Assembly (NCBI GenBank): GCA_964616425.1 | Contig: CAZTQY010000004.1 | Location: 46,251-110,250, forward strand | Direction of reading: 5' to 3' | Source: an uncultured Candidatus Saccharibacteria bacterium | Lineage (GTDB): Bacteria; Patescibacteriota; Minisyncoccia; Phycocordibacterales; DATDWN01 | DNA: 64,000 nt | Shown: positions 4,107 through 59,531 of the stretch, one piece after another | Numbering within the stretch: the stretch's first letter is position 1 | Layout of the letters: every line of letters begins with the position of its first letter | Notes under the pieces: model-generated | The model's database searches: none | What the model saw: only the letters and a program-made list of their open reading frames with translations | Told to the model about the DNA's origin: nothing | Program-made: the position numbers and the translations under genes

Positions 4107-4366
4107 ATTGTTTGTTGTTATGAACTTCCAAATTTCATCAATCTCTGCGTTAAAATTGAAAAATTTTCGTCACCATACTGCTAAGTATGGTTTCTCAAAT
4201 TTTTCAATTTTGCCTTGACCTTGAAGAAATTGTGAAAGTTCTAATTTTTAAATTGATTATCCATTCTTATTTTACCGTATTTTGGTAAAAAAGAAGGTCC
4301 GGCTTTCGCCGAACTTCAATAAAATAATAATATCAGCTAAGAAATTGTTTGTCAAATTAATAAAAA

Positions 4367-4638
4367 GAGGGGCCCGTCCGAAGACAAGGCCCCTCTGGGG
4401 TTTGGTGCGGGACCGTTCTAGTCCGCACCTGGGGCATAGGAATACCCCATAGTATCCAAGCCTAAATCTGGAAATCAATGGTCATGACAGAGGCGTGCGC
4501 TCAAGTCCTTGATGAGTGTCTTGGACGAGGCACAGGTGACGGACTAACCATTGATTTTGATTTAAATGAGTGCCCGGTAACACCCATTGGTGACATGGAC
4601 TAGTCACCACCACTGCAGGCGTCCGCCACCCCTAAACC
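4367..4638. ncRNA. GC-rich (~58% GC) structured non-coding island, candidate ncRNA of unknown class
   Basis: No ORF >=60 aa consistent with region; strong hairpins: gaggggcc/ggcccctc (8 bp), ggtgcgg/ccgcacc (7 bp), atcaatggt/accattgat (9 bp long-range), ggtgac/gtcacc (6 bp). GC far above flanks. Confidence 0.3.
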
Positions 4639-4798
4639 AAAATGAGAACAACAACTTTTGAAAGTATATGTAAATTTTATTTATAGTCAAACATTTATTT
4701 TTTTTGTTAATGATCACCGAAAAGTTTTTATTGTTATAAACATTATTTATTAGAAAATGAATTAAGCATTGTGCTATAATTTGTATACAAATTTCTCT

Positions 4799-11710: not shown

Positions 11711-11714
11711 TTTG

Positions 11715-11830
11715 GGTCTTTTTATCCAATTTCCGCGTTGCTCGTTCCGTTTGATCCGCGCTTAGTACTATTAGTACAGCTTGGTCGCAGTACTCACTCG
11801 CGCCTTGAACTTGAACAAAAATCCACCAAA
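11715..11830 (+). repeat. copy A of ~120-nt conserved intergenic repeat (ggtctttttNcc..atttcNgcgttgct...AGTACTAnnnGTACAncTTGGTC...cTTGAACTnGAACAAAAATCC)
   Basis: Near-identical core to 23011-23128 and 44005-44085 (see findings). Confidence 0.6.
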
Positions 11831-11855
11831 CTAATTTTGTGGTATCATAATGGGT

Positions 11856-15923: not shown

Positions 15924-15985
15924 ATAGTCGAAAGGCCTCGGTCAAATGACACGAGGCCTTTTGTTTGGCTGGATTTATCCAGCCG

Positions 15986-16366
15986 TCAGATCCCGAGTTC
16001 GGCGCAATCATCGGGACTAAGGAACTTTTTCGCTAGCCATCGGAAGATGTAGTCGGGGATGGACTTGGCGTATGGGATGTCTGGGTTGTTTGTTTTCCCA
16101 TACGGTTCGAATTTCATATCGATGCACTTTCTAACTAGGTCTTTCAGCGGCACACCGTGCTGGAGGCCGGTTGACAGGACGATTGATGCGAAATCCCACG
16201 TGCCAGATACCGGAGAACCAGTTTTGGCGTAGGTGATGAAGATTTCCCCGAGACTTCCGTCGTTATGCATACCAGGACGTATGTATAATTCGTGTCCTCC
16301 TTCAATCTCAAATTTGTGAACGAGTGCCTCTCTTGTATCAGGCAATGGCCTATGATGCTCGGTCAT
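15986..16366 (-). CDS. small TSCPD-domain-like protein (resembles C-terminal region of class II ribonucleotide reductase), GC-richer than flanks
   Basis: RPLPDTREALVHKFEIEGGHELYI...EIFITYAKTGSPVSGTWDFASIVLSTGLQHGVPLKDLVRKC resembles NrdJ C-terminal/TSCPD region but lacks the conserved Cys; GGAGG SD 7 nt before ATG (MTEHH). Confidence 0.35.
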   Translation of the reverse strand: MTEHHRPLPDTREALVHKFEIEGGHELYIRPGMHNDGSLGEIFITYAKTGSPVSGTWDFASIVLSTGLQHGVPLKDLVRKCIDMKFEPYGKTNNPDIPYAKSIPDYIFRWLAKKFLSPDDCAELGI

Positions 16367-16444
16367 GGAGACCTCCATAATGAATACTACCACTAACCCA
16401 AGGTATTAATAGACTAAAAAATATTCTGATATAATATCCACTAT

Positions 16445-23004: not shown

Positions 23005-23010
23005 TTTTGC

Positions 23011-23128
23011 GGTCTTTTTGCCCGATTTCTGCGTTGCTAGTTTTGTTTGTTCCCGCAGAGTACTAAATGTACACTTTGGTCACAAACAAAACGTCGCGTC
23101 TTGAACTCGAACAAAAATCCTCACAAAA
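23011..23128 (+). repeat. copy B of ~120-nt conserved intergenic repeat
   Basis: Aligns with 11715-11830 and 44005-44085. Confidence 0.6.
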
Positions 23129-23190
23129 CTCATACTTTTTTCACTTGCATTATGTTAATGTTTTTGTGATATAATATTGCCAATAGAAAT

Positions 23191-24034: not shown

Positions 24035-24035
24035 G

Positions 24036-24066
24036 TACGACAAAGGCCCCGATCTTCTGGGGCCTC
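24036..24066. terminator. hairpin ggccccgatcttctggggcc, terminator for minus-strand GC-rich ORF (T-run on minus strand)
   Basis: Perfect 6-bp GC stem; T-rich tail only on minus strand. Confidence 0.5.
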
Positions 24067-24088
24067 TGGTGAACTGTGTTGGGTGTGA

Positions 24089-24331
24089 CTACGCTTCGAC
24101 GATTGCGGGACTTGCCTGTTGTGCAAGCGAGAGTGTTTCAGGCTTCACCCACCCTCTTTCGTGGGTGTTCACGTATCCGCGTTCCTTGTGTCGAACGCCG
24201 ATGTGCGTGACCGTGAGTGTCTCGCCAGACTCCGTGTCGGTGACGACAACTGGCGGACAGAGTCTGGTGTTTCCGGTGACGGTGCTTGTTTCGGTTCTCG
24301 TTGCCTGAGCAACGAGCTCTTCGTTGGTCAT
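24089..24331 (-). CDS. GC-rich island ORF (hypothetical, ~80 aa)
   Basis: ~58% GC versus ~36% flanks; GGGGTGA SD 4 nt before ATG (MTNEELVAQ...); several overlapping ORFs in other frames, so strand/frame call is tentative. Confidence 0.3.
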   Translation of the reverse strand: MTNEELVAQATRTETSTVTGNTRLCPPVVVTDTESGETLTVTHIGVRHKERGYVNTHERGWVKPETLSLAQQASPAIVEA

Positions 24332-24454
24332 TCTCACCCCTGAAACTATTTCTATCACACGAGTTCTGTCATTGCAACGAGATGAGTTTTGGTATATAGT
24401 TTGAACCATTCCTATTGGGAATTTTTTTTACTCTTTATTATTATTTAATTATAT

Positions 24455-26689: not shown

Positions 26690-29629
26690 ATGGCTATAAC
26701 TTTTAGAGAAGAAGAACTAACTCCAAGTAATTTGAATCCTACTAAATTCAAAGAAGAGTTCGAGGCCGAGGTTAATGGAAAGCATAAAAACTCTGGTGAA
26801 ATTTTTACTTTTCGTAAACAACCAACAGAGATATTTCCAGATGAAGAAGCACCAGTCGATACTGGGTTGTATCATGGACCGTTAACAAAAAGACGGACAC
26901 AAATAAAAATTTTCAATGAAAGTCCAGAAGGACAGGCTATGTATAAGGACATAAGTAGCATTCTTCCTTCTAGGGAAGAATCTTTAGAAATACATAACAA
27001 AGCACTTTCTCTTGGATCAGGTGGAGAAACTCGTATGTCAAAAGATAGGAAAGATCGATTAAATAGAGAAATGGGTGTAGAAAGCAGTCAGAACGGTGGT
27101 AGTGAATACTATGACATTAGAAAATCAAAATGGAAGAAAAAAATAGATAACATAAGAAGTTTTTTAAGAAACAAATCAATTGAAGTCGGTGCACCAAAGA
27201 GCCTAAAGTCTGTTGCCGACTATTATTTAAAAGGAGAAGGGCTGACAGTTTCACAAGCTATTGATATTTTGTCCAAAGCATATAGTGAAGGACTTTTTCC
27301 TTTAGCAGATGCACAATCTTTTGAGAATGAGTTGGAGATTCCGAAAGGAGTTATTACTGGCGAAAACAAAGCAGAGCAAAAGGTTGAGAAGAAAAATTCA
27401 ACTCCAGTCGAAGCTCCAGTTGATGCCGAAACAGCGAAAGTGGATGAATCCGTAAATGAACCAGAAGTATTAGAAAGAGCTGAACCTGTGTCAGAAGTTA
27501 AAACAGAGCAAGATGTTGTCGCTGATCCTTATTTGAAAAAAGTTAAAATTTCTAGAATCATAGATATTCCAAAGCAAAAAATGAGAGCAGAGATTCCAGC
27601 AGGAGAAATAAAAATAGAAAATAAATATAGCCCCACAGCAGAGGCGGTCGTTTCTGGTATGAGAGGAGAACCTTTTAAAGAAAGTGAGATATTGAATAAA
27701 TCTAGAGTTGAACTACCAGAAAAAGAAAAAGATTTTTTTGAAAGTGAAGCCGCTATCAAGTCATATAGAGAAGGAAATATAGAAGAGGCCGAGAGTCATA
27801 TAGATAAAATATCAGATTTAAAAATCCAGGCTGAGACAGCCGGACAAATCACAGAAGAAGCAGTCAATGCTGGTAATTTTGATAATGCAGTTAAGTTCGT
27901 AGTTAGAATAAAGTATGAAAATTATTCAAAACAGTTAATGGATTGGGTAAAAAAAATGAAGTCTCAGTATTCTAAACCTGCAAAAGAAAAGTCTTCAAAG
28001 ATTAGTGAGTCTTCTGATGTTGAAAATGAAAATATAGAAAATGATCTCATTTTGAATGATCGCAGTGTAGTTGAGGTTCCGATGGATTTGGATTTAAATC
28101 CAATGCTAGACATAGTGGATGATAGTTTTAGCCTTGTGCGTGTTGAGGAAAATCCAGAGAACAAAGAGTCTGTTTTGAATGAAAAAATAAAAGAACAGAT
28201 CGCTAGAGTTAAGGTTGTTGAAAATACAAATGAAAAAGCTTATACCGAAGAACTGGCTAAGCTTAGAGTTTTGGAAAGACAAAGAGATTCTGAAAGAGCA
28301 CCAAAAACAGAGCCAAAGGTTGAATCTCCTGTTTTAGGTAATGAGTCCAAAAAAGATCTAGACGCAGAAGTTGATAGAACAAGAGAGGAGTACGCAAAGA
28401 CTTTTATTGATTGGGAAACCAAATCTCGATTTGGAAAGAGGATGTTTATTAAAACCCTTCAGAGCCTTGGAGTTATCAAACCAACACCCGCTAGACTTTC
28501 TGAAATGACTCCAGCGATGAAGGAGGCAAAAGAAGAGTATCTTGAGGCGATGAGAAAAAGGGGTATAAATCTAGAGATTGATGCAAAAAAGCTTTTGCTT
28601 AGTGAAAGATTTAATCTAGAAGAAAAATTACTTGAGTTAAGACTTGAGAAAAGTAATGAAGGAGACAAGGAGGCAAAAAGAGATGCCGGTATTATGAGTA
28701 AAGCTGTAAAAGGTTGGAAAAATAAAGATACAAAGCAAAAGGTTGTTGCTTCAGCTGTTATTTTAGGTGGCCTGGGAGTAGTTGCTGGTGGAGTTGAGCA
28801 AGGAAAGGAATATTTTGAAGGTTTGCGGGTTTATAGAAACATGACCATTCCGTCATCTCCGTCAGAATCTTTACCTGAAATAGAATCAGCACAAAAAATA
28901 AAAATACCAGAAGGATTTGAAATAGCACCTAAAAAAGTTTTTGTTAAAAATGAAATACGTACTGAAAATCCAGAGGAGAATCAAATAAAAATAGAAAAAA
29001 AAGAAGTTGTCAGTGAAATAGATGCAAAAACAGAAGGAAAAGAAGTAACTGAACCAACAGAAATTAAAAAAGATGAAATCAAGCAAGAAGAAGTTCTGCC
29101 TGTAACGCGAGAGATCAAGCCACTACCTGCACTTGAAACTAATAAAACCATAGCTAGATTTGAGCAGGCTACACATATTCCTTACGGTAATTCATTTGTA
29201 TATATCGTTGAGTTGGATAATGGAGCTAGGGCTGTAAAGTTTGATGGTGTGGAGATTGCTCATGAGCACGATAGTGAATCAGGAAAATATTTCTACCTAG
29301 ATGACCAGTATCAAGATGGTCCTATATTCAACAATATACGAGGGGCGTTTGCTACTTATTTATCTGAAGTCATTGTTGATGATCAAAAGATGTTACCACA
29401 TATCGAATTTGAGGGTGGAAGAATAGATGTACTAAAAGATCCTTCTCTAGAGGGGGGTGTTAGTGTTTTGCTAAATGGAAGGTTGGTTGCTACGGGTGCA
29501 ATTTCAGGGAAAAAAGTAAAAATATCAACACTTAAAGATCTTAAGGGTCCTTGGTTTGCAGCGGATACTGTTTACGAGCGAGCAAAGAATTTTGCTGAGA
29601 AAAGCATAAAGTCTTCACTTAAAAAATAA
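26690..29629 (+). CDS. large (979 aa) acidic, K/E-rich, low-complexity protein with one central TM helix; hypothetical
   Basis: AT-rich native composition, leaderless-type start (TACAAT then ATG), hydrophobic segment VVASAVILGGLGVVAGGV near aa 690, more ordered C-terminal ~230 aa. Confidence 0.5.
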   Translation: MAITFREEELTPSNLNPTKFKEEFEAEVNGKHKNSGEIFTFRKQPTEIFPDEEAPVDTGLYHGPLTKRRTQIKIFNESPEGQAMYKDISSILPSREESLEIHNKALSLGSGGETRMSKDRKDRLNREMGVESSQNGGSEYYDIRKSKWKKKIDNIRSFLRNKSIEVGAPKSLKSVADYYLKGEGLTVSQAIDILSKAYSEGLFPLADAQSFENELEIPKGVITGENKAEQKVEKKNSTPVEAPVDAETAKVDESVNEPEVLERAEPVSEVKTEQDVVADPYLKKVKISRIIDIPKQKMRAEIPAGEIKIENKYSPTAEAVVSGMRGEPFKESEILNKSRVELPEKEKDFFESEAAIKSYREGNIEEAESHIDKISDLKIQAETAGQITEEAVNAGNFDNAVKFVVRIKYENYSKQLMDWVKKMKSQYSKPAKEKSSKISESSDVENENIENDLILNDRSVVEVPMDLDLNPMLDIVDDSFSLVRVEENPENKESVLNEKIKEQIARVKVVENTNEKAYTEELAKLRVLERQRDSERAPKTEPKVESPVLGNESKKDLDAEVDRTREEYAKTFIDWETKSRFGKRMFIKTLQSLGVIKPTPARLSEMTPAMKEAKEEYLEAMRKRGINLEIDAKKLLLSERFNLEEKLLELRLEKSNEGDKEAKRDAGIMSKAVKGWKNKDTKQKVVASAVILGGLGVVAGGVEQGKEYFEGLRVYRNMTIPSSPSESLPEIESAQKIKIPEGFEIAPKKVFVKNEIRTENPEENQIKIEKKEVVSEIDAKTEGKEVTEPTEIKKDEIKQEEVLPVTREIKPLPALETNKTIARFEQATHIPYGNSFVYIVELDNGARAVKFDGVEIAHEHDSESGKYFYLDDQYQDGPIFNNIRGAFATYLSEVIVDDQKMLPHIEFEGGRIDVLKDPSLEGGVSVLLNGRLVATGAISGKKVKISTLKDLKGPWFAADTVYERAKNFAEKSIKSSLKK

Positions 29630-30146: not shown

Positions 30147-31346
30147 ATGGCAGGAGAATTCGATCGATCAAAGCCTCACATGAACGTGGGAACTATTGGT
30201 CACGTTGACCATGGTAAGACAACATTAACAGCAGCTATTCTTACTGTTCTATCAAGACAGGGAAGTGGTTTCGGCGCAAAGCTAAAGGGAGTTGGAGAAA
30301 TCGACTCAGCACCTGAGGAAAAAGCAAGAGGAATTACTATTGCTCTTTCTCACAACGAGTACGAGACACCTACAAGACACTATGCTCACGTAGATGCTCC
30401 AGGACACGCTGACTATATTAAAAACATGATTACTGGTGCCGCTCAAATGGACGGTGCAGTACTAGTGGTAGCAGCTACAGACGGTGTGATGCCTCAAACA
30501 CGAGAGCATGTACTTTTGGCAAAGCAGGTTGGAGTTCCAAAGATCATTGTTTTCCTAAACAAATGTGACATGGTTCCAGATACAGAGCTAATTGATCTAG
30601 TTGAGGAGGAAGTTCGAGAGCTCCTTACAAAGCAAGGATTCGACGGAGCAGGAGCTCCAGTTATTCGAGGTTCAGGTCTTAAGGCTCTTGAATCAGCATC
30701 AAACGATGATGAGTGGGCAAAGAAAGTTCTAGAACTTGCAAACGCACTAGATACTTACTTCCCAGTTCCAGAGAGAGATCTTGATAAACCATTCCTAATG
30801 CCAGTTGAGGACATCTTCTCAATTGAAGGACGAGGAACAGTGGTTACAGGAAGAATCGAGCGAGGAATCGTAAAGGTAGGTGAGGAAATCGAGTGTGTTG
30901 GTCTACATGACACACAGAAGTACACAGTTACTGGTATTGAAATGTTCAACAAATCTCTATCAGAAGGACAAGCTGGAGATAACGCAGGTATCCTACTCCG
31001 AGGTGCAAAGAAAGAAGAAATTCACCGAGGTCAGGTTCTTGCAAAGCCAAAGTCAGTGACTCCTCATACAGAGTTTACAGCTGAGGTTTACATCCTAAAG
31101 AAAGAGGAGGGAGGACGACACACTCCATTCTTCTCTGGTTACAAGCCACAGTTCTACATCCGAACTACAGACGTTACAGGAGATGTAACTTTGAACGAGG
31201 GAGTAGAGATGGTTATGCCAGGAGATACAGTTACATTCAAAGTTAAGCTAGTAGCACCAGTTGCACTAGAAGACAACACAAGATTTGCTATCCGAGAGGG
31301 AGGAAAGACTGTGGGAGCTGGAGTTGTAACAAAGATCATCGCTTAG
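30147..31346 (+). CDS. tuf: elongation factor Tu
   Basis: [19 protein letters not shown] motifs; start at [18 protein letters not shown] (23rd codon of track ORF). Confidence 0.95.
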
Positions 31347-31371
31347 TCTTAAACTTTAATAAGTTTTCAAA

Positions 31372-31396
31372 AAGCCACCTTTGGGTGGTTTTTTGA
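31372..31396 (+). terminator. rho-independent terminator aaagccacctttgggtggttttttg
   Basis: Hairpin + T-run immediately after tuf; near-identical to 32131-32156. Confidence 0.65.
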
Positions 31397-31428
31397 TTTG
31401 ATAGATGGTAAGTTTGTATATGGGGGTC

Positions 31429-31656
31429 ATGATGGTAATTTGCACGGGGCACACTAAGTTGGAAGTCGGAAAGGTTTATAAGAGCCTCGCCGACGATTTG
31501 GGAATCTGGCACCATGGTCAGCCATTTCTCGTCGTGAGAGATGCAACAAGGTTGGAATTCATCCAGGAGTGTATCGAAGCAAGGATTCCAACTGGTAGGT
31601 ATTTGGAAATGATCAGCATACCAGGAGTTCTTTATTGTGAAATCACGTTAGATTGA
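31429..31656 (+). CDS. GC-rich island ORF (hypothetical ~75 aa)
   Basis: GGGGG SD then ATGATG; elevated GC; followed by GC hairpin ggccctcaactgagggcc. Confidence 0.3.
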   Translation: MMVICTGHTKLEVGKVYKSLADDLGIWHHGQPFLVVRDATRLEFIQECIEARIPTGRYLEMISIPGVLYCEITLD

Positions 31657-31687
31657 CACGGCCCTCAACTGAGGGCCGTTCGCGCAC

Positions 31688-31716
31688 TTGAACAAAAAAT
31701 CATTATCTGGTAGTAT
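31688..31716 (+). promoter_or_regulatory. promoter TTGAAC-17-TAGTAT re-driving rpsJ
   Basis: Consensus-like hexamers with 17-nt spacer; near-identical copy at 32421-32449. Confidence 0.5.
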
Positions 31717-31749
31717 CTTGAAATCAATTAAATTGACATGCGATAAATT

Positions 31750-32127
31750 ATGACTGCAAAAGAAACAACAAAAAAAGCTCCAAAGAAGGCTCCTGCAAAG
31801 TCTGCAGTAAAGTCAGATGCTATTTCAAAGCTACGAATACGAGTTCGAGCTTACGAATACAAGATTTTAGACCTTTCAGTAAAGCAGATCATAGATACAG
31901 CTCTGAGATATGATGCAAAGGTAGAAGGACCTATCCCTCTTCCTACAGAGATAAAGAAATACACTGTAAACCGATCATCTTTCGTTTACAAAAATGCTCG
32001 AGAGCAGTTTGAAATGAGAATTCACAAGAGGGTAATAGACATTCTAAACCCTACACCAAAGATAATGGAAGCGTTAACAAACCTTTCATTGCCATCTGGA
32101 GTGAACATTGACGTAAAGATCATCTAA
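31750..32127 (+). CDS. rpsJ: 30S ribosomal protein S10 (with K-rich N-terminal extension)
   Basis: RIRVRAYEYKILD...GPIPLPT...conserved S10 core. Confidence 0.9.
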   Translation: MTAKETTKKAPKKAPAKSAVKSDAISKLRIRVRAYEYKILDLSVKQIIDTALRYDAKVEGPIPLPTEIKKYTVNRSSFVYKNAREQFEMRIHKRVIDILNPTPKIMEALTNLSLPSGVNIDVKII

Positions 32128-32130
32128 TCA

Positions 32131-32156
32131 AAAAACCACCTTCGGGTGGTTTTTTG
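32131..32156 (+). terminator. rho-independent terminator aaaaaccaccttcgggtggttttttg
   Basis: Hairpin + T-run; paralogous to terminator after tuf. Confidence 0.65.
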
Positions 32157-32191
32157 ATTAGATAAGTGATACCTTTTTGAGAGGAGGTTCC

Positions 32192-32362
32192 ATGGAGATG
32201 TCAGACGAGAAACCTGTAAGGCCTGTGCAAAGGCAATCAGAGCGTCCCTACAAGTGCATACTTTGTCGTGCCAGGTTCGCAACCTTTCTCGAGTTGCGAA
32301 ACCATCAAGACGGTCACGACCCGGAGGGGATTCACTTCTCCGAACTAGGGTTACCGAAATAG
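32192..32362 (+). CDS. GC-rich island ORF encoding small C2H2 zinc-finger-like protein
   Basis: YKCILCRARFATFLELRNHQDGH fits C-x2-C-x12-H-x3-H; GAGGAGG SD before ATG (MEMSDEK); followed by GC hairpin gcccgcactcgcactgagttgcgggc. Confidence 0.35.
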   Translation: MEMSDEKPVRPVQRQSERPYKCILCRARFATFLELRNHQDGHDPEGIHFSELGLPK

Positions 32363-32420
32363 CTGGCGACCCCTAGGCCCGCACTCGCACTGAGTTGCGG
32401 GCCCTCTTTTTAAATACCAC

Positions 32421-32449
32421 TTGAATAAAAAAACATTATCTGCTAGTAT
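32421..32449 (+). promoter_or_regulatory. promoter TTGAAT-17-TAGTAT re-driving rplC and downstream genes
   Basis: Paralog of 31688-31716 promoter (cacttgaaYaaaaaaNcattatctgNtagtat). Confidence 0.5.
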
Positions 32450-32558
32450 AGCGAAATCGTTTAAAAAACGTTTTAACCGATGGCTAGCGATGGGCAATGT
32501 TGAGGAAAATCTTTCCTCATTACTGTCCGAAAAACGCCATCAAGTAAGTATCAAAAAT

Positions 32559-33170
32559 ATGAAATTTATTCTTGGAACAAAAGTTAATATGACACAGATC
32601 TTTGATGAAAAAGGTCTAGTTCATCCTGTAACAGTTGTAAAAACTGGTCCTATTGTTGTTACACAGGTAAAAACAGTTGCTACAGACGGATACAACGCAG
32701 TTCAGGTTGGTTTCGGAAAGAAGAACATAAAAAATGTAAACAAAGCTATTGCAGGACACACAAAAGGTGCTGCATATGCACATCTAGTTGAGTTCCGAAC
32801 AGAAGGTGAGCCTACTTTCAAAGTTGGAGATTCTATTGATCTTTCTACTTTCTCTGCTGGAGACATGGTTGTTGTTTCTTCTACATCAAAAGGAAAAGGA
32901 TTTCAGGGAGGTGTTAAGAGACACGGATTCAAAGGAGGATCACGAACACACGGACAGAAGCACTCAGAGCGAGAGCCTGGATCTATTGGAGGAGGAGGAC
33001 GAGACGGAGGTCGTGTTGCAAAAGGCAAGAGAATGGCCGGAAGAATGGGTAGTGATCGAATCACTTCAAAGGGTCTAACTGTTGTTAGTGTAAAGCCAGA
33101 AACTAACGAGATTTTTATTCAGGGAGCTATCGCTGGACGAAGAGGAACTCTAGTTGAAGTTGTAGGTTAA
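32559..33170 (+). CDS. rplC: 50S ribosomal protein L3
   Basis: MKFILGTKVNMTQIFDEKG... conserved L3; start at internal ATG (47th codon of track ORF). Confidence 0.9.
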   Translation: MKFILGTKVNMTQIFDEKGLVHPVTVVKTGPIVVTQVKTVATDGYNAVQVGFGKKNIKNVNKAIAGHTKGAAYAHLVEFRTEGEPTFKVGDSIDLSTFSAGDMVVVSSTSKGKGFQGGVKRHGFKGGSRTHGQKHSEREPGSIGGGGRDGGRVAKGKRMAGRMGSDRITSKGLTVVSVKPETNEIFIQGAIAGRRGTLVEVVG

Positions 33171-35019: not shown

Positions 35020-35024
35020 TTCAA

Positions 35025-35055
35025 AACAAAACCGCCGAAAGGCGGTTTTGTTTTG
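35025..35055 (+). terminator. terminator aaaccgccgaaaggcggttttgtttt
   Basis: Hairpin + T-run after rplB, before GC-rich island. Confidence 0.6.
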
Positions 35056-35119
35056 ACTATTTGAAATATATAGGTAATCTTTGGTATAGAGGCGATTTCG
35101 CCACTAATTGGAGGGATTA

Positions 35120-35458
35120 ATGACCAAGGGACAGTTCCTGGGGCACTTTCGGGAGGCCGTCGAGAAGTTTCGTGATGGCGTTGCGGAGTACGTGGCTAAT
35201 GCCGATCATTCGACAGAAACTGTTGGCAAGCGAGTGGGGTTCTATAGTGCTCTGGCACTCGCTTCGGCCAGGGACGCCGAAATACCAATCAAGGATGCCG
35301 AGAACCCGGTATGCGAGGCGATCGTCAGGTTTCGTAACAGTGGACCTTGGCTCCTTACGTTTGATGAGCTGGTCGCCATCGAACAGGCCTGGGAGTACTA
35401 CGACGACTATCAGCGTGCCAAGGAGCTCTCTGGTCGTCGGCCGGATCAGATCGGATAG
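35120..35458 (+). CDS. GC-rich island ORF (hypothetical ~112 aa)
   Basis: Promoter-like TTGAAA-18-TATAGA, GGAGGG SD then ATG (MTKGQFLGHF); ~58% GC. Confidence 0.35.
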   Translation: MTKGQFLGHFREAVEKFRDGVAEYVANADHSTETVGKRVGFYSALALASARDAEIPIKDAENPVCEAIVRFRNSGPWLLTFDELVAIEQAWEYYDDYQRAKELSGRRPDQIG

Positions 35459-35643
35459 TGTGGCGGGCGAGGGGGCGCGGACATATTGGGGGCCCATGAA
35501 AAAATATGTTTACAATATTTTGTGTTTTTTATACTATGGACGCCACTGAAGTATTTACATTCTGTTTGAGTTTTAAGTAAGTCAGTACCACGAAAATGTG
35601 GTTTTCTTCTTGCCAATTGGCGGGGAATTAAAATAGACAAAAT

Positions 35644-39217: not shown

Positions 39218-39223
39218 TACTAA

Positions 39224-39250
39224 GAAAAATCCCTCAACTGAGGGTTTTTT
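39224..39250 (+). terminator. terminator aaaaatccctcaactgagggttttttc (same CCCTCAACTGAGGG hairpin core as 31665-31680)
   Basis: Hairpin + T-run after rplE. Confidence 0.6.
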
Positions 39251-39360
39251 CTAAAATTGACTTTTGGAGCATTTGGCGTAGGCTATTCCCAGATGCGCAT
39301 ATCGCGCACATGTTTGCTTGTTGCTGTCAGGCGACAACACTGGAGGTTTCCGTGGGTATC

Positions 39361-39810
39361 ATGAGGATTGTCATCGGGTTCGTCGTTGGTGCTTTGTCTA
39401 TGCTGGTTGTTCAGAGTTTGTTGAGGATGTACAAGGAGTCCCAAAAGGAGAAGGCTCGTCTACGATGGAACCGAGAAATCCAAGAGCGTAGAAGTCAGGA
39501 GAAAGCTGTGGCCGACAAGATCAAGGACGCCCTTCTCCTATTCCTGCCGAAGTTCATGATTCGCGTGGGTTCTGAACGATCGTATGGATACCATGAAGTT
39601 CATGTTTGGATCGTGGGGGATCCACGCTCCTCTTACAGAGCACGTGTCACCTTCGGCGATACGGGTGAGGCAGAGATCAACGTTCTGGATATTCGTAGAG
39701 GTAAGTCAGTTTGCTATAGTGCTGAAAACCTCGATCAGGCAATTGACGCAATGAAAGCTAGGATCATTGCGGACCACGCTGAACTGTTCCCCGTTCCACA
39801 TATGGACTAG
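39361..39810 (+). CDS. GC-rich island ORF, membrane-anchored hypothetical protein (~149 aa)
   Basis: GGAGG SD, start MRIVIGFVVGALSMLVVQSLL (TM helix), ~57% GC; followed by GC hairpin gccggcatgccctataggtgtgccggc and promoter TTGACT-17-TAGTAT (~39875-39903). Confidence 0.35.
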   Translation: MRIVIGFVVGALSMLVVQSLLRMYKESQKEKARLRWNREIQERRSQEKAVADKIKDALLLFLPKFMIRVGSERSYGYHEVHVWIVGDPRSSYRARVTFGDTGEAEINVLDIRRGKSVCYSAENLDQAIDAMKARIIADHAELFPVPHMD

Positions 39811-39956
39811 GTTCCTGCCGGCATGCCCTATAGGTGTGCCGGCTGACTCGTTTCCGTTGACTTTTTTACGCCTTATTGCTAGTATAACCCCAGCTTGTCT
39901 GTTCTATAGATATCTATTCTATAGAAAAGATATAGGCTTTTTTAATTACATTTTCA

Positions 39957-40142
39957 ATGGCAAAAACATCAGTAAAAGCACGAGCAGCAAAGAAACCAAA
40001 GTTTAGTACAAAAGCTACTAACCGATGTTTTCGATGTTCTCGAGGAAGAGGTTTTATGCGAGACTTTGGTCTTTGCAGAATCTGCTTTAGAGAGTTAGCC
40101 AACGAAGGTAAGATCCCAGGAATCAAAAAATCATCCTGGTAA
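39957..40142 (+). CDS. rpsN: 30S ribosomal protein S14 type Z (zinc-binding)
   Basis: 61 aa with CxxC...CxxC ([10 protein letters not shown]...CRIC). Confidence 0.9.
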
Positions 40143-43879: not shown

Positions 43880-44004
43880 TTCTGGTTTTTTTGCCGAATT
43901 TCTTTGTTCTCGATTTTACTTTCCTTACAGGAACAGTACACCTTTCACATTTTGTTTACAAAATATTCAAGGTCTTGCGAAGTGATAAAATCACTTCTCA
44001 CTCC

Positions 44005-44085
44005 ACGCGCAGTACTAGATGTACAGCTTGGTCGAAAGTAAAATCTGCGAACTTCGAACTTCAACAAAAATCCGCAGAATTAGAA
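44005..44085 (+). repeat. copy C core of ~120-nt conserved intergenic repeat (5' portion of repeat at ~43883-43925)
   Basis: gcgcAGTACTAgatGTACAgcTTGGTCg...cTTCGAACTTCAACAAAAATCCgcaGaa aligns with copies A and B. Confidence 0.55.
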
Positions 44086-44119
44086 ACTTCACATTAGTAG
44101 TTGCGGAAAATCAAAAACA

Positions 44120-44160
44120 GTGTCAAAGAGTGAAAACTCTTTGACACTGTTTTTGTAGTT
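44120..44160 (+). terminator. strong terminator aaaaacagtgtcaaagagtgaaaactctttgacactgtttttg
   Basis: 13-bp stem with A/T runs. Confidence 0.65.
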
Positions 44161-44222
44161 GTTTAACATTCAGTCAGATCGCTCTTCACGCGAATTTCAT
44201 TTTAGTTCAGAAAGGAGTCCTC

Positions 44223-45218
44223 ATGGCGAAGCCGCTACCTTTCGTATCGCCTATGAGGGCTTTACGAAATATCCGAGCGATGGATACCCAACCTGCAAAG
44301 GCGGATACAAAGCTTGGGAAAAAGCTGCAAGCTCTTTTCCCAGACTATGACCCAAAGTTTGACCGTGAAAAGTCAGATGAGGTTCGACTGTACTACCTGC
44401 CACAGGTTGTACACCTATCAGATAGTGACCTACTTGCAGAGCTCGATTACTGGGCTCGAAAGTATGCCAGTCGGAACGACGTGGAATACTCCACCAAAAC
44501 TCCGATCGGTGACTTTCTCTCCCAGGCAAAGAGCCTGCAAAGGAAGATAAGACAGGGCCTGCATCCTGAGAAGCTGACCCCTTTGTACCGCAGAACTATC
44601 ATCAAGGGGTGCATTGCACTCAGATGGCAGGTAGTGCCGTACTTCCCGGGGCCTTCAATCTCAGGACAGCCTAGTGTCCGTGGCTGTATCAATGGTCACA
44701 AGCACTTTCTCTATGAGGACACTGACTGGCAGCTGGCCCAGAGGCTCGCTTCACTCGTAGGTTCCTGCGACATTGCTCTTCACGAGCTGTCGTTCATGGC
44801 ACGGAGTTGGCGGTCTGCATGGGACAAGGGTCCAGAGAAGTTCTCCTTCGAGTCAGATGGTCATCGGAAGTGGGCTGAGAAGCTCCATCACTCACTCCTC
44901 GAGAGAGAGGCGGGCATTTTCTACGATCAGGCACAAAGGTTCAGGGAGATGGTCGGGTTCCTGAAAAGGGTCCCACTCTGGCGGAGAAATCCAATCCAGG
45001 CGAACCTTTCGATTCTTCCAGATGCGGTCATTGTGACCAAAACGGAAGAGACCGATGCTGACCCAGAGAAGCCTGTTCGCCCGGCAGACCTCGGGGATTT
45101 ACTCTCAGTTCCAGATCTTGGTGACTGGGTAGGAGACTGCTTCCAGTATCGGCTCGACTTTCCACGTGTGGAGGTCGAATGGAACGGTGAAGCTGTTCAA
45201 AGTGAAATTAGTTTTTAA
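44223..45218 (+). CDS. GC-rich island ORF (hypothetical 331 aa)
   Basis: AGGAGT SD 6 nt before ATG; ~58% GC; followed by GC hairpin cgacggccacctagaggagtggtcgtcg and promoter TTTATC-17-TATAAT (45247-45275) for adk. Confidence 0.4.
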   Translation: MAKPLPFVSPMRALRNIRAMDTQPAKADTKLGKKLQALFPDYDPKFDREKSDEVRLYYLPQVVHLSDSDLLAELDYWARKYASRNDVEYSTKTPIGDFLSQAKSLQRKIRQGLHPEKLTPLYRRTIIKGCIALRWQVVPYFPGPSISGQPSVRGCINGHKHFLYEDTDWQLAQRLASLVGSCDIALHELSFMARSWRSAWDKGPEKFSFESDGHRKWAEKLHHSLLEREAGIFYDQAQRFREMVGFLKRVPLWRRNPIQANLSILPDAVIVTKTEETDADPEKPVRPADLGDLLSVPDLGDWVGDCFQYRLDFPRVEVEWNGEAVQSEISF

Positions 45219-45281
45219 CGACGGCCACCTAGAGGAGTGGTCGTCGTTTATCGTTTATATATATTTTGCTATAATCAACTC

Positions 45282-53093: not shown

Positions 53094-53164
53094 AAGGGTA
53101 TTGTAACAGATTTATTGACATACTCTAGTAAAACTATACTATTTTCTCGGGAGGGGATGCTACG

Positions 53165-53539
53165 ATGGCCGAAGTGATGAAACCCCGGAGATCGATTTCT
53201 GTCGTGCACGCTGCAGAACGTGCACGAAAGCCTATCCAGGAAATTCACGGGCTTCTTGTTGAGGGAGTTCTAAAGGGTTGCCGGGCGGAGAATGGCACGC
53301 GGCGAGTGTATATCGATTCGCTCGACGACTACATCTCCAAGATGAAAGCAACCCAGTCTGAGACGCAACAACCAGAGGAGGTGACCTTGAGCCAGGCGGT
53401 CATGATGTCCGGCTTACCTAGGGACATTATCAGTAACTGGGTTGATCACGGCGAGGTCGCAAGCCGGACGGACCACCTCGGAGTTCTTCTTGTGGACTTC
53501 AGTACAGTCCAGAGGAGGATGAAGGGTGTGCGTAAGTAG
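53165..53539 (+). CDS. GC-rich island ORF with excisionase/MerR-like helix-turn-helix (hypothetical DNA-binding protein)
   Basis: Promoter TTGACA-16-TACTAT, GGGAGGGG SD; VTLSQAVMMSGLPRDIISNWVDHGEVASRT resembles HTH_17/Xis-type motif; followed by hairpin gggggtagcaccaatgtgcaccccc. Confidence 0.4.
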   Translation: MAEVMKPRRSISVVHAAERARKPIQEIHGLLVEGVLKGCRAENGTRRVYIDSLDDYISKMKATQSETQQPEEVTLSQAVMMSGLPRDIISNWVDHGEVASRTDHLGVLLVDFSTVQRRMKGVRK

Positions 53540-53634
53540 GTCTGTGTGGCCGGTTTCCATAAGGGGGTAGCACCAATGTGCACCCCCTTTTCGTTTCTTT
53601 TATTTTGTTTAATATCGTGTATACTGGGGCTACA

Positions 53635-55967: not shown

Positions 55968-56204
55968 ATGTTTTATACATATGTTCTAAAAAGTTTAAAA
56001 GATAGTGAGTTGTATATTGGCTTTTCCAAGGATTTGAAAAATAGGATCAAGGAACATCATAAAGGTTTAGTTCCTGCAACAAGAGACAGGAGACCCTTAG
56101 AGCTAGTGTACTATGAGGCTTGCTTGAGTTATAGTAAGGCTGTTGAACGGGAAAAGTCGTTAAAAACTGGTTTCGGTCGTTCATATTTAAAAAGACGAAT
56201 ATAA
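55968..56204 (+). CDS. small GIY-YIG nuclease-domain protein (UPF0213/YhbQ-like)
   Basis: YTYVLKS...SELYIGFSKDLKNRIKEHHKG...R...LVYYE...E...K matches GIY-YIG catalytic core spacing. Confidence 0.6.
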   Translation: MFYTYVLKSLKDSELYIGFSKDLKNRIKEHHKGLVPATRDRRPLELVYYEACLSYSKAVEREKSLKTGFGRSYLKRRI

Positions 56205-56208
56205 TCAT

Positions 56209-56282
56209 GCGCCTGTAGCTCAGTTGGTTAGAGCACAGAGCTTATACCTCTGGGGTCCCAGGTTCGAATCCTGGCAGGCGCA
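56209..56282 (+). tRNA. tRNA-Ile with anticodon UAU (AUA-decoding)
   Basis: Cloverleaf: acceptor gcgcctg/caggcgc, D-arm gctc-agttggtta-gagc, anticodon stem cagag/ctctg with loop cTTATAc, T-arm ccagg-ttcgaat-cctgg, discriminator A; CCA not encoded. Confidence 0.8.
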
Positions 56283-56289
56283 CACGACG

Positions 56290-56320
56290 AAAAAAATCTC
56301 CTGAACGGAGATTTTTTCGT
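56290..56320 (+). terminator. terminator aaaaaaatctcctgaacggagattttttcg
   Basis: Hairpin + T-run after tRNA. Confidence 0.6.
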
Positions 56321-56477
56321 ACGCGTGCGAGGCACAGGCCGACGGGCCGAGCCGGGGTCGCGCAAAAATTCAACAGAATTTTATGCGTGACCACAGACGA
56401 AAACAAAATTATCCGTGACCACAACTAAATAATGCAAAAGGTCTGCAATCAAATTGCAGACCAAATGGGAACCTCCT

Positions 56478-59141: not shown

Positions 59142-59204
59142 ATGACTAGTTTATCATGTACATAGGTATATAATGTATAGTAGAAATCTCGGAGGGGTAC
59201 CACC

Positions 59205-59480
59205 ATGATGGATGATGTGTTGCACCACGACACTCAGGAACACGCTTACTACCTCTACCTCAAAAGGAAGAAGAAGGGGTTGCCCAACGACCCCATCGCC
59301 GACTGGTATGAGGCCGAGAAAGACATGCGTTCGGCTCACGAGCAGGCTTACGAAGTTGCCGAACGAGTGTTCTTTCATCGAAGAGGTCACTACCCAGAGT
59401 TTTTCGGAGAGCGCTCATTCTTGGATGAGGCTTTCCGAATCATCATGCGTGCTAGGTTCTCAACCGTGCACGCAAACTAG
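59205..59480 (+). CDS. GC-rich island ORF, DUF2934-like small protein
   Basis: GGAGGGG SD; DPIADWYEAEKDM resembles DUF2934 (DWxxAE) signature; followed by GC terminator hairpin (59495-59530). Confidence 0.3.
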   Translation: MMDDVLHHDTQEHAYYLYLKRKKKGLPNDPIADWYEAEKDMRSAHEQAYEVAERVFFHRRGHYPEFFGERSFLDEAFRIIMRARFSTVHAN

Positions 59481-59531
59481 CCCATCCTCTGTTGGGACGC
59501 TCCCGCCCGCCGGACTCTTTGAGCCCGGCGG

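What the first reader, a model, noticed from the sequence alone, without database searches (positions are those of the whole stretch)
31347..32558. Twin cassette insertions after tuf and after rpsJ: terminator, GC-rich SD-bearing small ORF, GC hairpin, then a promoter that re-drives downstream ribosomal genes
The intergenic gaps tuf/rpsJ and rpsJ/rplC are normally short or absent. Here each holds the same module. It begins with a near-identical terminator (aaaaaRccaccttYgggtggttttttgattWgataR). Then comes a 55-60% GC small ORF with a GGAGG-type SD, and the two ORFs are unrelated to each other (one is a C2H2 zinc-finger-like 57-aa protein, YKCILCRARFATFLELRNHQDGH). A GC-rich hairpin follows. 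The module ends with a near-identical promoter (cacttgaaYaaaaaaNcattatctgNtagtat, i.e. TTGAAY-17-TAGTAT). Paralogous flanks around different cargo genes suggest a modular, self-insulating insertion cassette (T-ORF-P) that avoids polar effects on the essential operon. I know of no described element with this architecture.
Basis: seen in the sequence. Interest (0 to 1): 0.8.

Follow-up and report, generated by a model that had tools for sequence, protein, structure and literature searches.

The report
Variable gene slots inside ribosomal operon
In this tiny-genome (CPR/Patescibacteria) bacterium the ribosomal-protein operon is cut by conserved native terminator–promoter pairs. The few bases between each pair act as an insulated slot where small foreign-looking orphan genes are gained and swapped, even between near-identical strains.

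Summary
Two terminator-like copies (49 nt, 84% identical) and two promoter-like copies (48 nt, 83%) bracket two unrelated small ORFs after tuf and after rpsJ. Neither motif occurs elsewhere in the 64 kb.

Related Paceibacteria ("Zambryskibacteria"-like) carry the same terminator and promoter at the same positions with nothing between them. Each promoter is conserved with its orthologues across many species. The rplC promoter is followed by a conserved structured leader RNA that shows covariation.

What varies is only the content between T and P. A 98.6%-identical strain has exactly 32160-32414 replaced by an unrelated ORF and hairpin, with perfect identity on both sides. Another species keeps the hairpin but carries a third ORF. 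The rplB/rpsS gap behaves the same way, with five versions among contigs that encode an identical RpsS.

The cargo genes are orphans, richer in GC, and carry Shine-Dalgarno sites that 54 of 59 native genes lack. ORF2 is a classical C2H2 zinc finger.

Best reading: native insulated slots that act as gene-transfer hotspots for "moron"-like genes, possibly exchanged by recombination in the conserved T/P motifs, as with phage PeSLs. This is a new variant of known kinds and moderately interesting.

The parts
30147..31346 (+). tuf (EF-Tu), the upstream core gene of slot 1
   Evidence: ORF translation. An exact-protein look-up finds it in L001/L096 with Pfam GTP_EFTU domains.
31367..31398 (+). T1: native intrinsic terminator after tuf. 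It is a palindrome (AAAAAGCCACC-TTTG-GGTGGTTTTTTGA), so it could act in both directions.
   Evidence: Folds at -18.7 kcal/mol, z -5.4. Paralogue of T2. The same CCACC/GGTGG terminator follows tuf in L005, L006, L007, L009, L010, L013, L019 and L091.
31399..31684 (+). Slot 1 cargo. It holds ORF1 (31432-31656, 74 aa; a longer reading starts at 31405) and a GC hairpin at 31655-31681 with no U-tract. A weak candidate promoter is TTGATT-18-TATATG (31393-31422).
   Evidence: 47% GC against 38% for the window. ORF1 is an orphan: its only database match is itself, from L002. It has no Pfam, PHROG or PADLOC hit. The AlphaFold2 model has low confidence, pLDDT 53, so coding status is not proven. The segment is identical in L001 and L002.
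31685..31716 (+). P1: native rpsJ promoter, with -35 TTGAAC at 31688-31693, a 17-nt A-rich spacer ending in the extended -10 motif TGg, and -10 TAGTAT at 31711-31716
   Evidence: Scores 42 bits on the promoter weight matrix. Orthologous promoters sharing ...TAGTATCTTGGAATCA occur in L006, L007, L089 and L091. Function is inferred; there are no transcript data.
31750..32127 (+). rpsJ (S10), a single-gene unit between the two slots
   Evidence: Pfam Ribosomal_S10, E 8.8e-32.
32122..32163 (+). T2: native terminator after rpsJ. It is a perfect 19-nt inverted repeat that includes the rpsJ stop codon.
   Evidence: Inverted repeat I2. Folds at -19.1 kcal/mol, z -5.6. A near-identical terminator follows rpsJ in L001, L003, L004, L084, L087 and L091.
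32160..32414 (+). Slot 2 cargo, which is exactly the segment replaced in strain L001. It holds an SD (GAGGAGG), ORF2 (32192-32362, 56 aa, a single classical C2H2 zinc finger) and a GC hairpin with a U-tract (32376-32403).
   Evidence: BLAST breakpoints against L001 fall at 32159 and 32415, with no mismatch in the 867 nt to the left or the 520 nt to the right. The C2H2 reading rests. No word-based homologue was found. The hairpin plus P2 is shared with L091, which carries a different ORF.
32418..32449 (+). P2: native rplC promoter, with -35 TTGAAT at 32421-32426 and -10 TAGTAT at 32444-32449
   Evidence: Scores 49 bits on the weight matrix. It is 95-97% identical in L009, L087, L089 and L091, where the first 300 nt of rplC coding DNA are only 84-86% identical. 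It is present in more than 25 relatives.
32479..32541 (+). Conserved structured leader RNA upstream of rplC: a three-part hairpin that is a candidate ribosomal-protein autoregulatory leader
   Evidence: RNAalifold on 16 distinct sequences gives 19 pairs, 9 of them with compensatory changes. No Rfam family matches.
32559..33170 (+). rplC (L3), the first gene of the rplC-rplD-rplW-rplB unit
   Evidence: ORF. tblastn synteny in about 74 relatives.
35020..35643 (+). Slot 3, a third module of the same design between rplB and rpsS. It holds T3 (35021-35056), an SD plus ORF3 (35120-35458, 112 aa, 58% GC), and P3 (35509-35537) with its leader.
   Evidence: ORF3 has a 58%-identical copy in L009, and differences between the two are concentrated at third codon positions (28/17/56 at positions 1/2/3), which indicates a real coding gene. 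Five different contents occur among contigs that encode an identical RpsS.

Best explanation
The source is a Patescibacteria (CPR) bacterium of the Paceibacteria / 'Candidatus Zambryskibacteria' type.

Native punctuation. In this lineage the str-S10 ribosomal gene cluster is broken into separate transcription units at fixed points: after tuf, after rpsJ, after rplB and further on. Each break is a strong intrinsic terminator followed by a dedicated promoter. For rplC the promoter is also followed by a structured leader RNA. T1/T2 and P1/P2 are old paralogous or co-constrained regulatory elements, each conserved with its orthologues. They are not recent twin insertions.

The slot. The few bases between a terminator and the next promoter are transcriptionally insulated and can be changed without harm. 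They therefore act as a safe landing slot. Small foreign gene units have lodged there, each made of an SD, an ORF, a GC-rich hairpin and often its own consensus sigma-70 promoter. These units resemble phage 'morons'.

Turnover. The cargo turns over very quickly. It differs between strains that are 98-100% identical in the flanks.

Exchange mechanism (inferred). Exchange most likely occurs by homologous recombination after DNA uptake. The homology arms would be either the conserved T and P motifs themselves, as with phage PeSLs, or the adjoining core genes.

Status of each step. Shown: T and P are native and conserved, the cargo is swapped with exact breakpoints, and the cargo looks foreign. 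Inferred: terminator and promoter activity, expression of ORF1 and ORF2, and the recombination route.
For: (1) Empty slots in relatives show T followed directly by P: L003, L007 and L090 in gap2 and L010 in gap1.

(2) P1 and P2 are each conserved with their orthologues, with distinct downstream signatures. The rplC leader shows covariation.

(3) Long gaps cluster at specific joints across 80 species: rpsJ/rplC in 32 of 74, rplB/rpsS in 11 of 15 and tuf/rpsJ in 10 of 81. The joints rplC/D, D/W, W/B, rpsS/rplV and rplV/rpsC almost never expand.

(4) The contents of these gaps are diverse accessory genes. They include HicA, ParE/YafQ and DUF4258-DUF2283 toxin-antitoxin pairs, a transposase-like protein (HTH_38 plus rve integrase core), a pirin, large proteins with signal-peptide-like N-termini, and orphans.

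(5) A strain-level swap is seen between the window and L001. They are 98.6% identical over 4 kb, yet 32160-32414 is replaced by an unrelated 317-nt unit. There is no mismatch in the 867 nt to the left or the 520 nt to the right.

(6) Mosaicism is seen in L091, which shares the window's hairpin and P2 but carries a different ORF. Slot alleles also assort independently. Slot 2 is the same in the JAHZTO and JAHZTR metagenomes, but slot 3 differs between them.

(7) The cargo looks foreign. GC3 is 0.5-0.66 against about 0.25 for native genes. Eight of 10 GC-rich ORFs have a GGAGG-type SD, whereas 54 of 59 native genes have none. A subgroup of Parcubacteria lacks the anti-SD motif (PMC9297842).

(8) Cargo in relatives carries its own consensus promoter starting at or just after the terminator tail. 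Examples are TTGACA-17-TATAAT in L089 gap1 and TTGACA-17-TATATT in L087 and L089 gap2.

(9) Slot 3 cargo is truly protein-coding, as shown by the excess of differences at third codon positions.
Against: - There are no transcript data. Terminator, promoter and cargo expression are all inferred from sequence.
- ORF1 has no homologue and a low-confidence structure model. It could be non-coding.
- ORF2 has no recognisable promoter of its own. It could be expressed only by read-through of T2.
- The donor of the cargo is unknown. There are no PHROG, PADLOC or viral-contig hits.
- No case of the same cargo in two different slots was found. Shuffling within a genome through the paralogous T/P repeats is therefore unsupported.
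- The clean breakpoints fit recombination in T/P, but they would also fit a site-specific mechanism.
- Slot 3 hairpins that share a GGGGCGAC...GTCGCCCC outer stem behind different ORFs could be a recombination site rather than a retained terminator.
Confidence: 0.65

Rival explanations
1. T-ORF-P is one self-insulating mobile cassette that inserted twice, bringing its own terminator and promoter.
For: T and P copies are 83-84% identical within the genome and unique to these two sites. More distant Paceibacteria have rpsJ/rplC gaps of about 20 nt with no T or P. A T-P unit was therefore born at this joint at some point, possibly by duplication of the tuf/rpsJ unit.
Against: Empty T-P junctions exist in relatives. 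Cargo changes while T and P stay identical. P1 and P2 are closer to their orthologues than to each other. P2 is tied to a conserved rplC leader.
Confidence: 0.05
2. A dedicated site-specific system inserts the cargo at terminator hairpins or through cassette-end hairpins. Candidates are integron-like attC recombination, a terminator-targeting group IIC intron, or an IS200/IS605-type or other hairpin-recognising element.
For: Breakpoints are exact, at the terminator tail and just before the -35, with flawless flanks. Every cargo ends in a hairpin. In slot 3, different ORFs end in hairpins that share the GGGGCGAC...GTCGCCCC outer stem, and L094 shows two such units in tandem.
Against: No group II intron or other RNA family hit was found in the region. 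Hairpins in slots 1 and 2 share no sequence. The cargo units are not repeated within the window. None of the window ORFs scanned (the GC-rich ones and a few neighbours) matched an integrase or transposase family; the other window ORFs were not scanned. In L091 the hairpin is kept while the ORF differs, so the hairpin is not tied to its ORF.
Confidence: 0.12
3. The cargo is not foreign. These are native, lineage-specific, very fast-evolving small genes, and the apparent replacements are hyperdivergent alleles.
For: Slot 3 ORFs of the window, L009, L092 and L093 have similar lengths and share a C-terminal A-W-[ED]-x-Y motif. The window ORF and the L092 ORF are 28% identical, E 1e-5 for that single comparison. 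L094 and L095 are 73% identical alleles.
Against: GC3 is twice the native value and SD sites are absent from native genes. The cargos of slots 1 and 2 show no similarity at all. phmmer does not support the slot 3 link. Other species hold toxin-antitoxin modules or a transposase-like gene in the same gaps.
Confidence: 0.1
4. The GC-rich segments are not protein genes. They would be structured RNAs or junk DNA, and the ORFs would be spurious.
For: ORF1 and ORF2 have no orthologues. The ORF1 structure model is poor. The host seems not to use SD sites.
Against: ORF2 matches the full classical C2H2 pattern and hits thousands of zinc-finger proteins. Slot 3 cargo shows coding-type substitution patterns. 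Eight of 10 GC-rich ORFs have a correctly spaced SD. No Rfam hits were found.
Confidence: 0.08

Closest known systems
PeSL (promoter-early stem-loop) composite terminator/promoter motifs of T4-type phages (Arbiol et al. 2010, PMC2839356; Comeau et al. 2014, PMC4122927)
   Same: Short conserved terminator and promoter motifs bracket orphan genes. Insertions, deletions and replacements between close relatives are bounded by the motifs. The stem-loop stops upstream transcription and the promoter restarts it.
   Different: PeSLs are about 50 repeated copies per phage genome, in hyperplastic regions of a virus, with promoter and stem-loop fused into one motif. Here the host is a cellular chromosome and the setting is the core ribosomal operon. 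Only two copies of this T/P type occur in 64 kb. T and P lie on opposite sides of the cargo. No mini-circles or cross-slot shuffling were detected.
Phage 'morons' (Cumby, Davidson and Maxwell 2012, PMC3594210)
   Same: An extra gene lies between two genes that are adjacent in relatives. Its GC content differs from its neighbours. It has its own terminator and, in several relatives, its own sigma-70 promoter. It is an independent transcription unit of unknown function.
   Different: It is not in a phage or prophage. No phage genes are nearby and there are no PHROG hits. The window's ORF2 lacks a recognisable promoter of its own.
Horizontal-gene-transfer hotspots flanked by core genes (Oliveira et al. 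2017, PMC5635113)
   Same: The same interval between two core genes holds different accessory genes in different genomes. Turnover is rapid and no mobile-element genes are present. Homologous recombination at the flanks is likely, in a lineage that the author's own knowledge suggests is naturally competent; no competence genes were tested here.
   Different: The hotspots lie inside the S10 operon, which is among the most conserved operons. They are very small, usually one gene of 56-190 aa. They are defined to the nucleotide by a terminator/promoter pair.
Integron gene cassettes
   Same: Each unit is a single ORF followed by a hairpin, inserted at a fixed position, with an unrelated ORF in each.
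   Different: No integrase or attI was seen. The hairpins are 25-35 nt with no shared core in slots 1 and 2. The units are not in arrays, apart from a possible tandem pair in L094. Several cargos have their own promoter.
Ribosomal-protein leader RNAs (autoregulatory leaders such as the E. coli S10 leader bound by L4; from my own knowledge)
   Same: A conserved, covarying hairpin lies in the 5' UTR of the rplC-rplD-rplW-rplB unit.
   Different: No Rfam family matches. It sits after rpsJ rather than before it. The ligand is unknown.

Membership tests
   T and P are present with 3-55 nt between them and no ORF in L007, L010, L090 and L003.
   P1 and P2 each match their orthologues in other species better than they match each other, with distinct downstream signatures.
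PeSL-type regulatory cassette | Replacements between close relatives are bounded by the terminator/promoter motifs | tested here: met
   Breakpoints between the window and L001 fall at 32159 and 32415, at the T2 tail and 4 nt before the promoter repeat, 6 nt before the P2 -35 hexamer. The flanks are 100% identical.
PeSL-type regulatory cassette | Many dispersed copies of one composite motif within a genome, mediating exchange between sites | tested here: not met
   Only 2 copies each of T and P occur in 64 kb. No cargo is shared between different slots.
PeSL-type regulatory cassette | Resides in hyperplastic regions of a T4-type phage genome | tested here: not met
   The window is a bacterial chromosome with tuf, ribosomal proteins and tmRNA.
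Moron | An extra gene between genes that are adjacent in relatives, with deviating GC content | tested here: met
   Gaps of 2-30 nt in many relatives. Cargo GC3 is 0.51-0.66 against about 0.25 for native genes.
Moron | Own promoter and own terminator | tested here: inconclusive
   Hairpins follow ORF1 and ORF2. Consensus promoters are seen for cargo in L087, L089, L091 and L013. ORF1 has only a weak candidate and ORF2 has none. There are no transcript data.
Moron | Located in a phage or prophage genome | tested here: not met
   No phage genes flank the slots. There are no PHROG hits and no viral-contig relatives.
Integron cassette | An attC-type recombination hairpin with a conserved core at each cassette end, plus an integrase | tested here: not met
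   Hairpins in slots 1 and 2 share no sequence. None of the window ORFs scanned (the GC-rich ones and a few neighbours) matched an integrase family. The slot 3 hairpins share an outer stem, which leaves that slot inconclusive.
Group IIC intron (terminator-targeting) | Ribozyme domains V/VI detectable, with insertion just 3' of a terminator | tested here: not met
   The position fits, but no group II intron or any other family passes in Rfam, even at E<=10.
HGT hotspot between core genes | The same core-gene interval holds different accessory genes across genomes, with rapid turnover | tested here: met
   At least 12 different contents of the rpsJ/rplC slot occur among about 18 close relatives. 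Five contents of rplB/rpsS occur among contigs with identical RpsS.
Classical C2H2 zinc finger (ORF2) | The spacing C-x2-C-x12-H-x3-H with conserved aromatic and Leu positions, and a profile match | tested here: inconclusive
   The pattern is fully present in the sequence. Pfam zf-H2C2_2 scores 21.3 bits (cut-off 40) and zf-C2H2_4 scores 19.1 bits (cut-off 27). Exhaustive HMMER gives 4835 hits; in the 150 best listed, residues ~15-43 match individual stretches of proteins with many matched stretches. The AlphaFold2 model shows the helix but has a mean pLDDT of only 68.
Ribosomal-protein leader RNA (rplC leader) | A conserved 5'-UTR structure with covariation upstream of a ribosomal-protein operon | tested here: met
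   19 pairs, 9 of them with compensatory changes, in 16 sequences.
Ribosomal-protein leader RNA (rplC leader) | Binding by a ribosomal protein encoded in the operon, giving autoregulation | not testable with these tools
   This needs binding or reporter assays.

The most novel reading that the evidence does not exclude
The conserved terminator and promoter motifs are more than operon punctuation. They would serve as portable homology arms of a cellular gene-shuffling system analogous to phage PeSLs, built into the core ribosomal operons of Paceibacteria. Naturally competent CPR cells would swap strain-specific small effector genes in and out of these slots without disturbing ribosome synthesis. 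The cargo could include eukaryote-like zinc fingers, symbiosis factors or anti-phage factors. The foreign SD signals, in a host that may lack an anti-SD, would then point to an unusual route of expression.
Probability: 0.2. Interest if true: 0.8.

Novelty: new variant of a known kind. Interest (0 to 1): 0.55.

Why it matters
The syntenic ribosomal-protein block is the backbone of CPR phylogenomics and is assumed to be inert. Here it contains nucleotide-precise, insulated slots with strain-level turnover of orphan genes. This gives four things:

- A tractable marker of microdiversity and recombination in uncultivated episymbionts.
- A defined pool of candidate strain-specific effector genes.
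- A natural design for inserting genes into essential operons without polar effects.
- A new candidate ribosomal-protein leader RNA for the rplC unit.

It also cautions annotators that a terminator and promoter inside the S10 operon are native in this clade.

Tried and rejected
- Rfam, both at gathering thresholds on the whole window and at E<=10 on 31300-32620, gave only chance hits driven by the terminators.
- The word-based homologue search found nothing for ORF2 and only self-matches for ORF1 and ORF3.
- Pfam, PHROGs and PADLOC on the cargo set gave no significant family. The exceptions are a TSCPD domain in 15986-16393 and sub-threshold zinc-finger and HTH hits.
- Viral-contig scans with the promoter motif and with ORF3 gave nothing.
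- Single-sequence AlphaFold2 models of ORF1 (pLDDT 53) and ORF2 (pLDDT 68) were too weak for fold searches, which were not run.
- All-against-all comparison of about 570 gap ORFs and of a curated cargo set found almost no cargo shared between different slots. The one hit is L038 rplB/rpsS against L082 fusA/tuf, at 29.5% identity.
- Exact look-ups of RplC and of Tuf found no further strain variants.
- A general promoter or terminator consensus of the organism was rejected as the cause of the twin similarity. The weight matrix finds no third site in the window.
- Assembly chimerism was rejected. The cargo recurs in independent assemblies.
Full report
**Observation**

The region reads: tuf (30147-31346), T1 (31367-31398), ORF1 (31432-31656), a hairpin (31655-31681), P1 (31685-31716), rpsJ (31750-32127), T2 (32122-32163), ORF2 (32192-32362), a hairpin (32376-32403), P2 (32418-32449), a leader, then rplC (from 32559).

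The repeat finder reports two direct-repeat families. One is the terminator-like pair of 49 nt at 84% identity. The other is the promoter-like pair of 48 nt at 83% identity. Each consensus, with up to three mismatches allowed, occurs only at these two places in 64 kb and never in 100 shuffles. All four hairpins are stable, with z-scores of -4.5 to -5.8. The sequences between the repeats do not align, and the two ORFs are unrelated.

GC content is 44% for ORF1 and 52% for ORF2, not 55-60%. The ribosome-binding motif of ORF1 is GGGGG. The hairpin after ORF1 has no U-tract.

**Not a twin but a general pattern**

A third module of the same design lies between rplB and rpsS. It has a terminator at 35021-35056, an SD plus a 112-aa ORF of 58% GC at 35120-35458, and a promoter at 35509-35537.

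Across the window about ten small ORFs with GC3 of 0.5-0.66 sit between housekeeping genes whose GC3 is about 0.25. Examples lie after rplE, after secY and before fusA. Eight of these ten carry a GGAGG-type Shine-Dalgarno core. In contrast, 54 of 59 native genes have no such motif at all. A published survey reports that the anti-SD motif is missing from the 16S rRNA of a Parcubacteria subgroup (PMC9297842).

**Source organism and relatives**

RpsJ retrieves 80 species-level genomes of Patescibacteria. Most are labelled Paceibacteria, Zambryskibacteria or Parcubacteria. Across them, gaps longer than 250 nt cluster at particular joints. They occur at rpsJ/rplC in 32 of 74 genomes, at rplB/rpsS in 11 of 15 and at tuf/rpsJ in 10 of 81. 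The joints rplC/rplD, rplD/rplW, rplW/rplB, rpsS/rplV and rplV/rpsC almost never expand.

The gaps hold very different things in different species. These include orphan ORFs, HicA, ParE/YafQ and DUF4258-DUF2283 toxin-antitoxin genes, a transposase-like protein (HTH_38 plus rve integrase core), a pirin and large proteins with signal-peptide-like N-termini. These joints are therefore clade-wide hotspots for accessory genes.

**T and P are native**

In close relatives the same terminator, AAAAAACCACC-N4-GGTGGTTTTTT, follows tuf and rpsJ in about 16 genomes. Only the loop varies. The same promoter, cTTGAATaaaaaaNNNtATCTGnTAGTAT, precedes rpsJ and rplC.

Several relatives have the terminator followed directly by the promoter with no ORF. 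The T-to-P distance is 3 nt in L007 gap2, 20 nt in L010 gap1, 42 nt in L090 gap2 and 55 nt in L003 gap2.

P1 orthologues share ...TAGTATCTTGGAATCA and P2 orthologues share ...TAGTATAGCGAAATCG. The two promoters are therefore old paralogues or co-constrained elements, each conserved in place. A weight matrix built from relatives' promoters scores only these two window sites, at 49 and 42 bits, with the next site at 10 bits. The similarity is thus not simply the general promoter consensus of the organism.

P2 is followed by a conserved 63-nt hairpin at 32479-32541. It has 19 predicted pairs, 9 of which show compensatory changes in 16 sequences. No Rfam family matches it. It is a candidate ribosomal-protein leader for the rplC-rplB unit.

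**The cargo turns over, to the nucleotide**

Contigs L001 and L002 come from two NCBI metagenome assemblies and encode an identical RpsJ. L001 is 98.6% identical to the window over 4 kb. It is identical through slot 1, rpsJ and T2, and identical again from 4 nt before the P2 repeat (6 nt before its -35 hexamer) for 520 nt. Yet the window segment 32160-32414 is replaced in L001 by an unrelated 317-nt unit. That unit holds an SD, a 70-aa ORF and a different GC hairpin. The nearest mismatch on the left is 867 nt away, and there is none on the right.

A scan of metagenome contigs with the P2 motif added nine loci. L091 is a related species with RplC 94% identical. It shares the window's hairpin and P2 (aggcccgcactc..actgagttgcgggccctc..tttaaatacc) but has a third, unrelated 75-aa ORF. 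L087 and L089 have a 133-140-aa ORF with its own TTGACA-17-TATATT promoter.

At least a dozen different contents of slot 2 occur among about 18 close relatives.

Slot 3 behaves the same way. Four contigs that encode an identical RpsS (92-97% DNA identity to the window) carry three further contents beyond the window's ORF3. Two of them (L094 and L095) hold 73%-identical alleles of one ORF.

Slot alleles also assort independently. In the JAHZTR assembly, the L001-type slot 2 is found alongside ORF3 in slot 3. In the JAHZTO assembly, the same slot 2 is found alongside a different slot 3.

**Nature of the cargo**

ORF2 has the full classical C2H2 pattern. Its Pfam hits fall below the gathering cut-offs. 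An exhaustive HMMER search finds 4835 proteins at E<=1e-3. In the 150 best listed, ORF2 residues ~15-43 match proteins with 6-40 matched stretches, read here as multi-finger proteins. No small orthologue appears among the top hits. The word-based search finds nothing.

ORF1 and ORF3 match only themselves. ORF3 also has a 58%-identical copy in slot 3 of L009.

Differences between ORF3 and its L009 copy number 28, 17 and 56 at codon positions 1, 2 and 3. Differences between the L094 and L095 alleles number 14, 12 and 28. This shows that slot 3 cargo is truly coding and evolves fast.

ORF3 and the slot 3 ORFs of L092 and L093 may be hyperdivergent alleles. They are 28% identical (E 1e-5 for the single pair) and share an A-W-[ED]-x-Y motif. 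phmmer does not confirm this.

No PHROG, PADLOC or viral-contig relationship was found. Single-sequence structure models were weak. The coding status of ORF1 remains unproven.

**Mechanism**

Shown:
- The terminator/promoter pairs are native and conserved.
- The space between them is the only part that changes.
- Replacement can be exact, with flawless flanks.
- The cargo differs from the host in composition and in translation signals.

Inferred:
- The terminator stops transcription from the highly expressed upstream gene, and the native promoter restarts it. Anything placed between them, if it ends in its own hairpin, therefore leaves ribosomal-protein expression untouched. That would make these few nucleotides the safest landing sites in the cluster.
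- Cargo units look like phage morons: an extra gene, deviating GC content and its own terminator and often its own promoter (PMC3594210).
- The loci behave like core-gene-flanked transfer hotspots, which often lack mobile-element genes and show recombination at their flanks, especially in transformable bacteria (PMC5635113).
- The exact breakpoints at the edges of T2 and P2 suggest recombination within the motifs themselves. P2 is 95-97% identical between species where the start of rplC is 84-86% identical. This is the mechanism proposed for PeSL motifs of T4-type phages (PMC2839356, PMC4122927). It remains unproven.
- No cargo was found shared between different slots, so shuffling within a genome is unsupported.

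A site-specific mechanism is not excluded. Slot 3 hairpins behind different ORFs share the outer stem GGGGCGAC...GTCGCCCC, and L094 shows two such units in tandem.

**Verdict**

The flanks are native operon punctuation, which is ordinary in kind, though placing it inside the S10 operon is a trait of this clade.

The noteworthy part is the set of nucleotide-precise, insulated slots inside the core ribosomal gene cluster of a CPR bacterium, with strain-level turnover of foreign-looking orphan genes. I found no paper describing this. It is best classed as a new variant of known kinds (hotspot, moron, PeSL-like). Interest is about 0.55.

Noticed in passing
window 32479-32541 (leader 32450-32558): A conserved three-part hairpin lies in the 5' UTR of rplC. 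It has 9 of 19 pairs with compensatory changes across 16 relatives and no Rfam match. It is a candidate new ribosomal-protein leader for the rplC-rplD-rplW-rplB unit.
   Followed up: partly
window 23005-23135, 11711-11835, 43880-44079; also L089 4515-4631, L004 4374-4494, L084 211-331, L085 778-894: A dispersed non-coding repeat of about 125 nt folds into one long imperfect hairpin (-36 kcal/mol, z -4.1). It always sits directly after a stop codon. It follows rpsG, a pilin-cluster gene and secY in the window, but follows rpsJ in other genomes. It looks like a MITE- or REP-type mobile palindrome. A second element of similar design follows tuf or rplB in L003, L089, L091, L013 and L092.
   Followed up: partly
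window, all genes: 54 of 59 native genes have no Shine-Dalgarno-like motif and have A/T-rich leaders instead. Eight of 10 GC-rich small ORFs have a GGAGG-type core. The 16S rRNA is not in the window, so the anti-SD could not be checked.
   Followed up: partly
window 39218-39957 (rplE / S14 gene), 43880-45236 (secY / adk), 53094-53577, 59142-59531, 15924-16444, 24035-24454: Further GC-rich, mostly SD-bearing orphan ORFs with GC hairpins lie between housekeeping genes. The one after rplE has the full layout: terminator, ORF, hairpin, then a TTGACT-17-TAGTAT promoter. The ORF at 15986-16393 carries a TSCPD domain (Pfam E 4e-10).
   Followed up: partly
window 4349-4640: A stretch of 54-57% GC between two AT-rich genes contains a strong hairpin (GAGGGGCC...GGCCCCTC). 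It has no convincing ORF and no Rfam hit.
   Followed up: no
window 26690-29629 (between fusA and tuf): A 979-aa low-complexity protein with no Pfam hit is inserted between fusA and tuf. It is 1052 aa in strain L001 and carries most of the substitutions that separate the two strains (49 of 57 mismatches). It is a hypervariable protein of unknown function.
   Followed up: no
window 56209-56283: A tRNA-Ile with anticodon UAU, which from my own knowledge is rare in bacteria. It lies next to a small GIY-YIG-like ORF (55968-56204) and a GC-rich stretch (56192-56424).
   Followed up: no
L092 890-920, L093 310-345, L094 1-45 and 395-435, L095 270-300: Hairpins behind different slot 3 ORFs share the outer stem GGGGCGAC...GTCGCCCC and have variable, compensating inner stems. 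L094 has two such units in tandem. This could be a retained native terminator or a recombination site at the cassette end.
   Followed up: no
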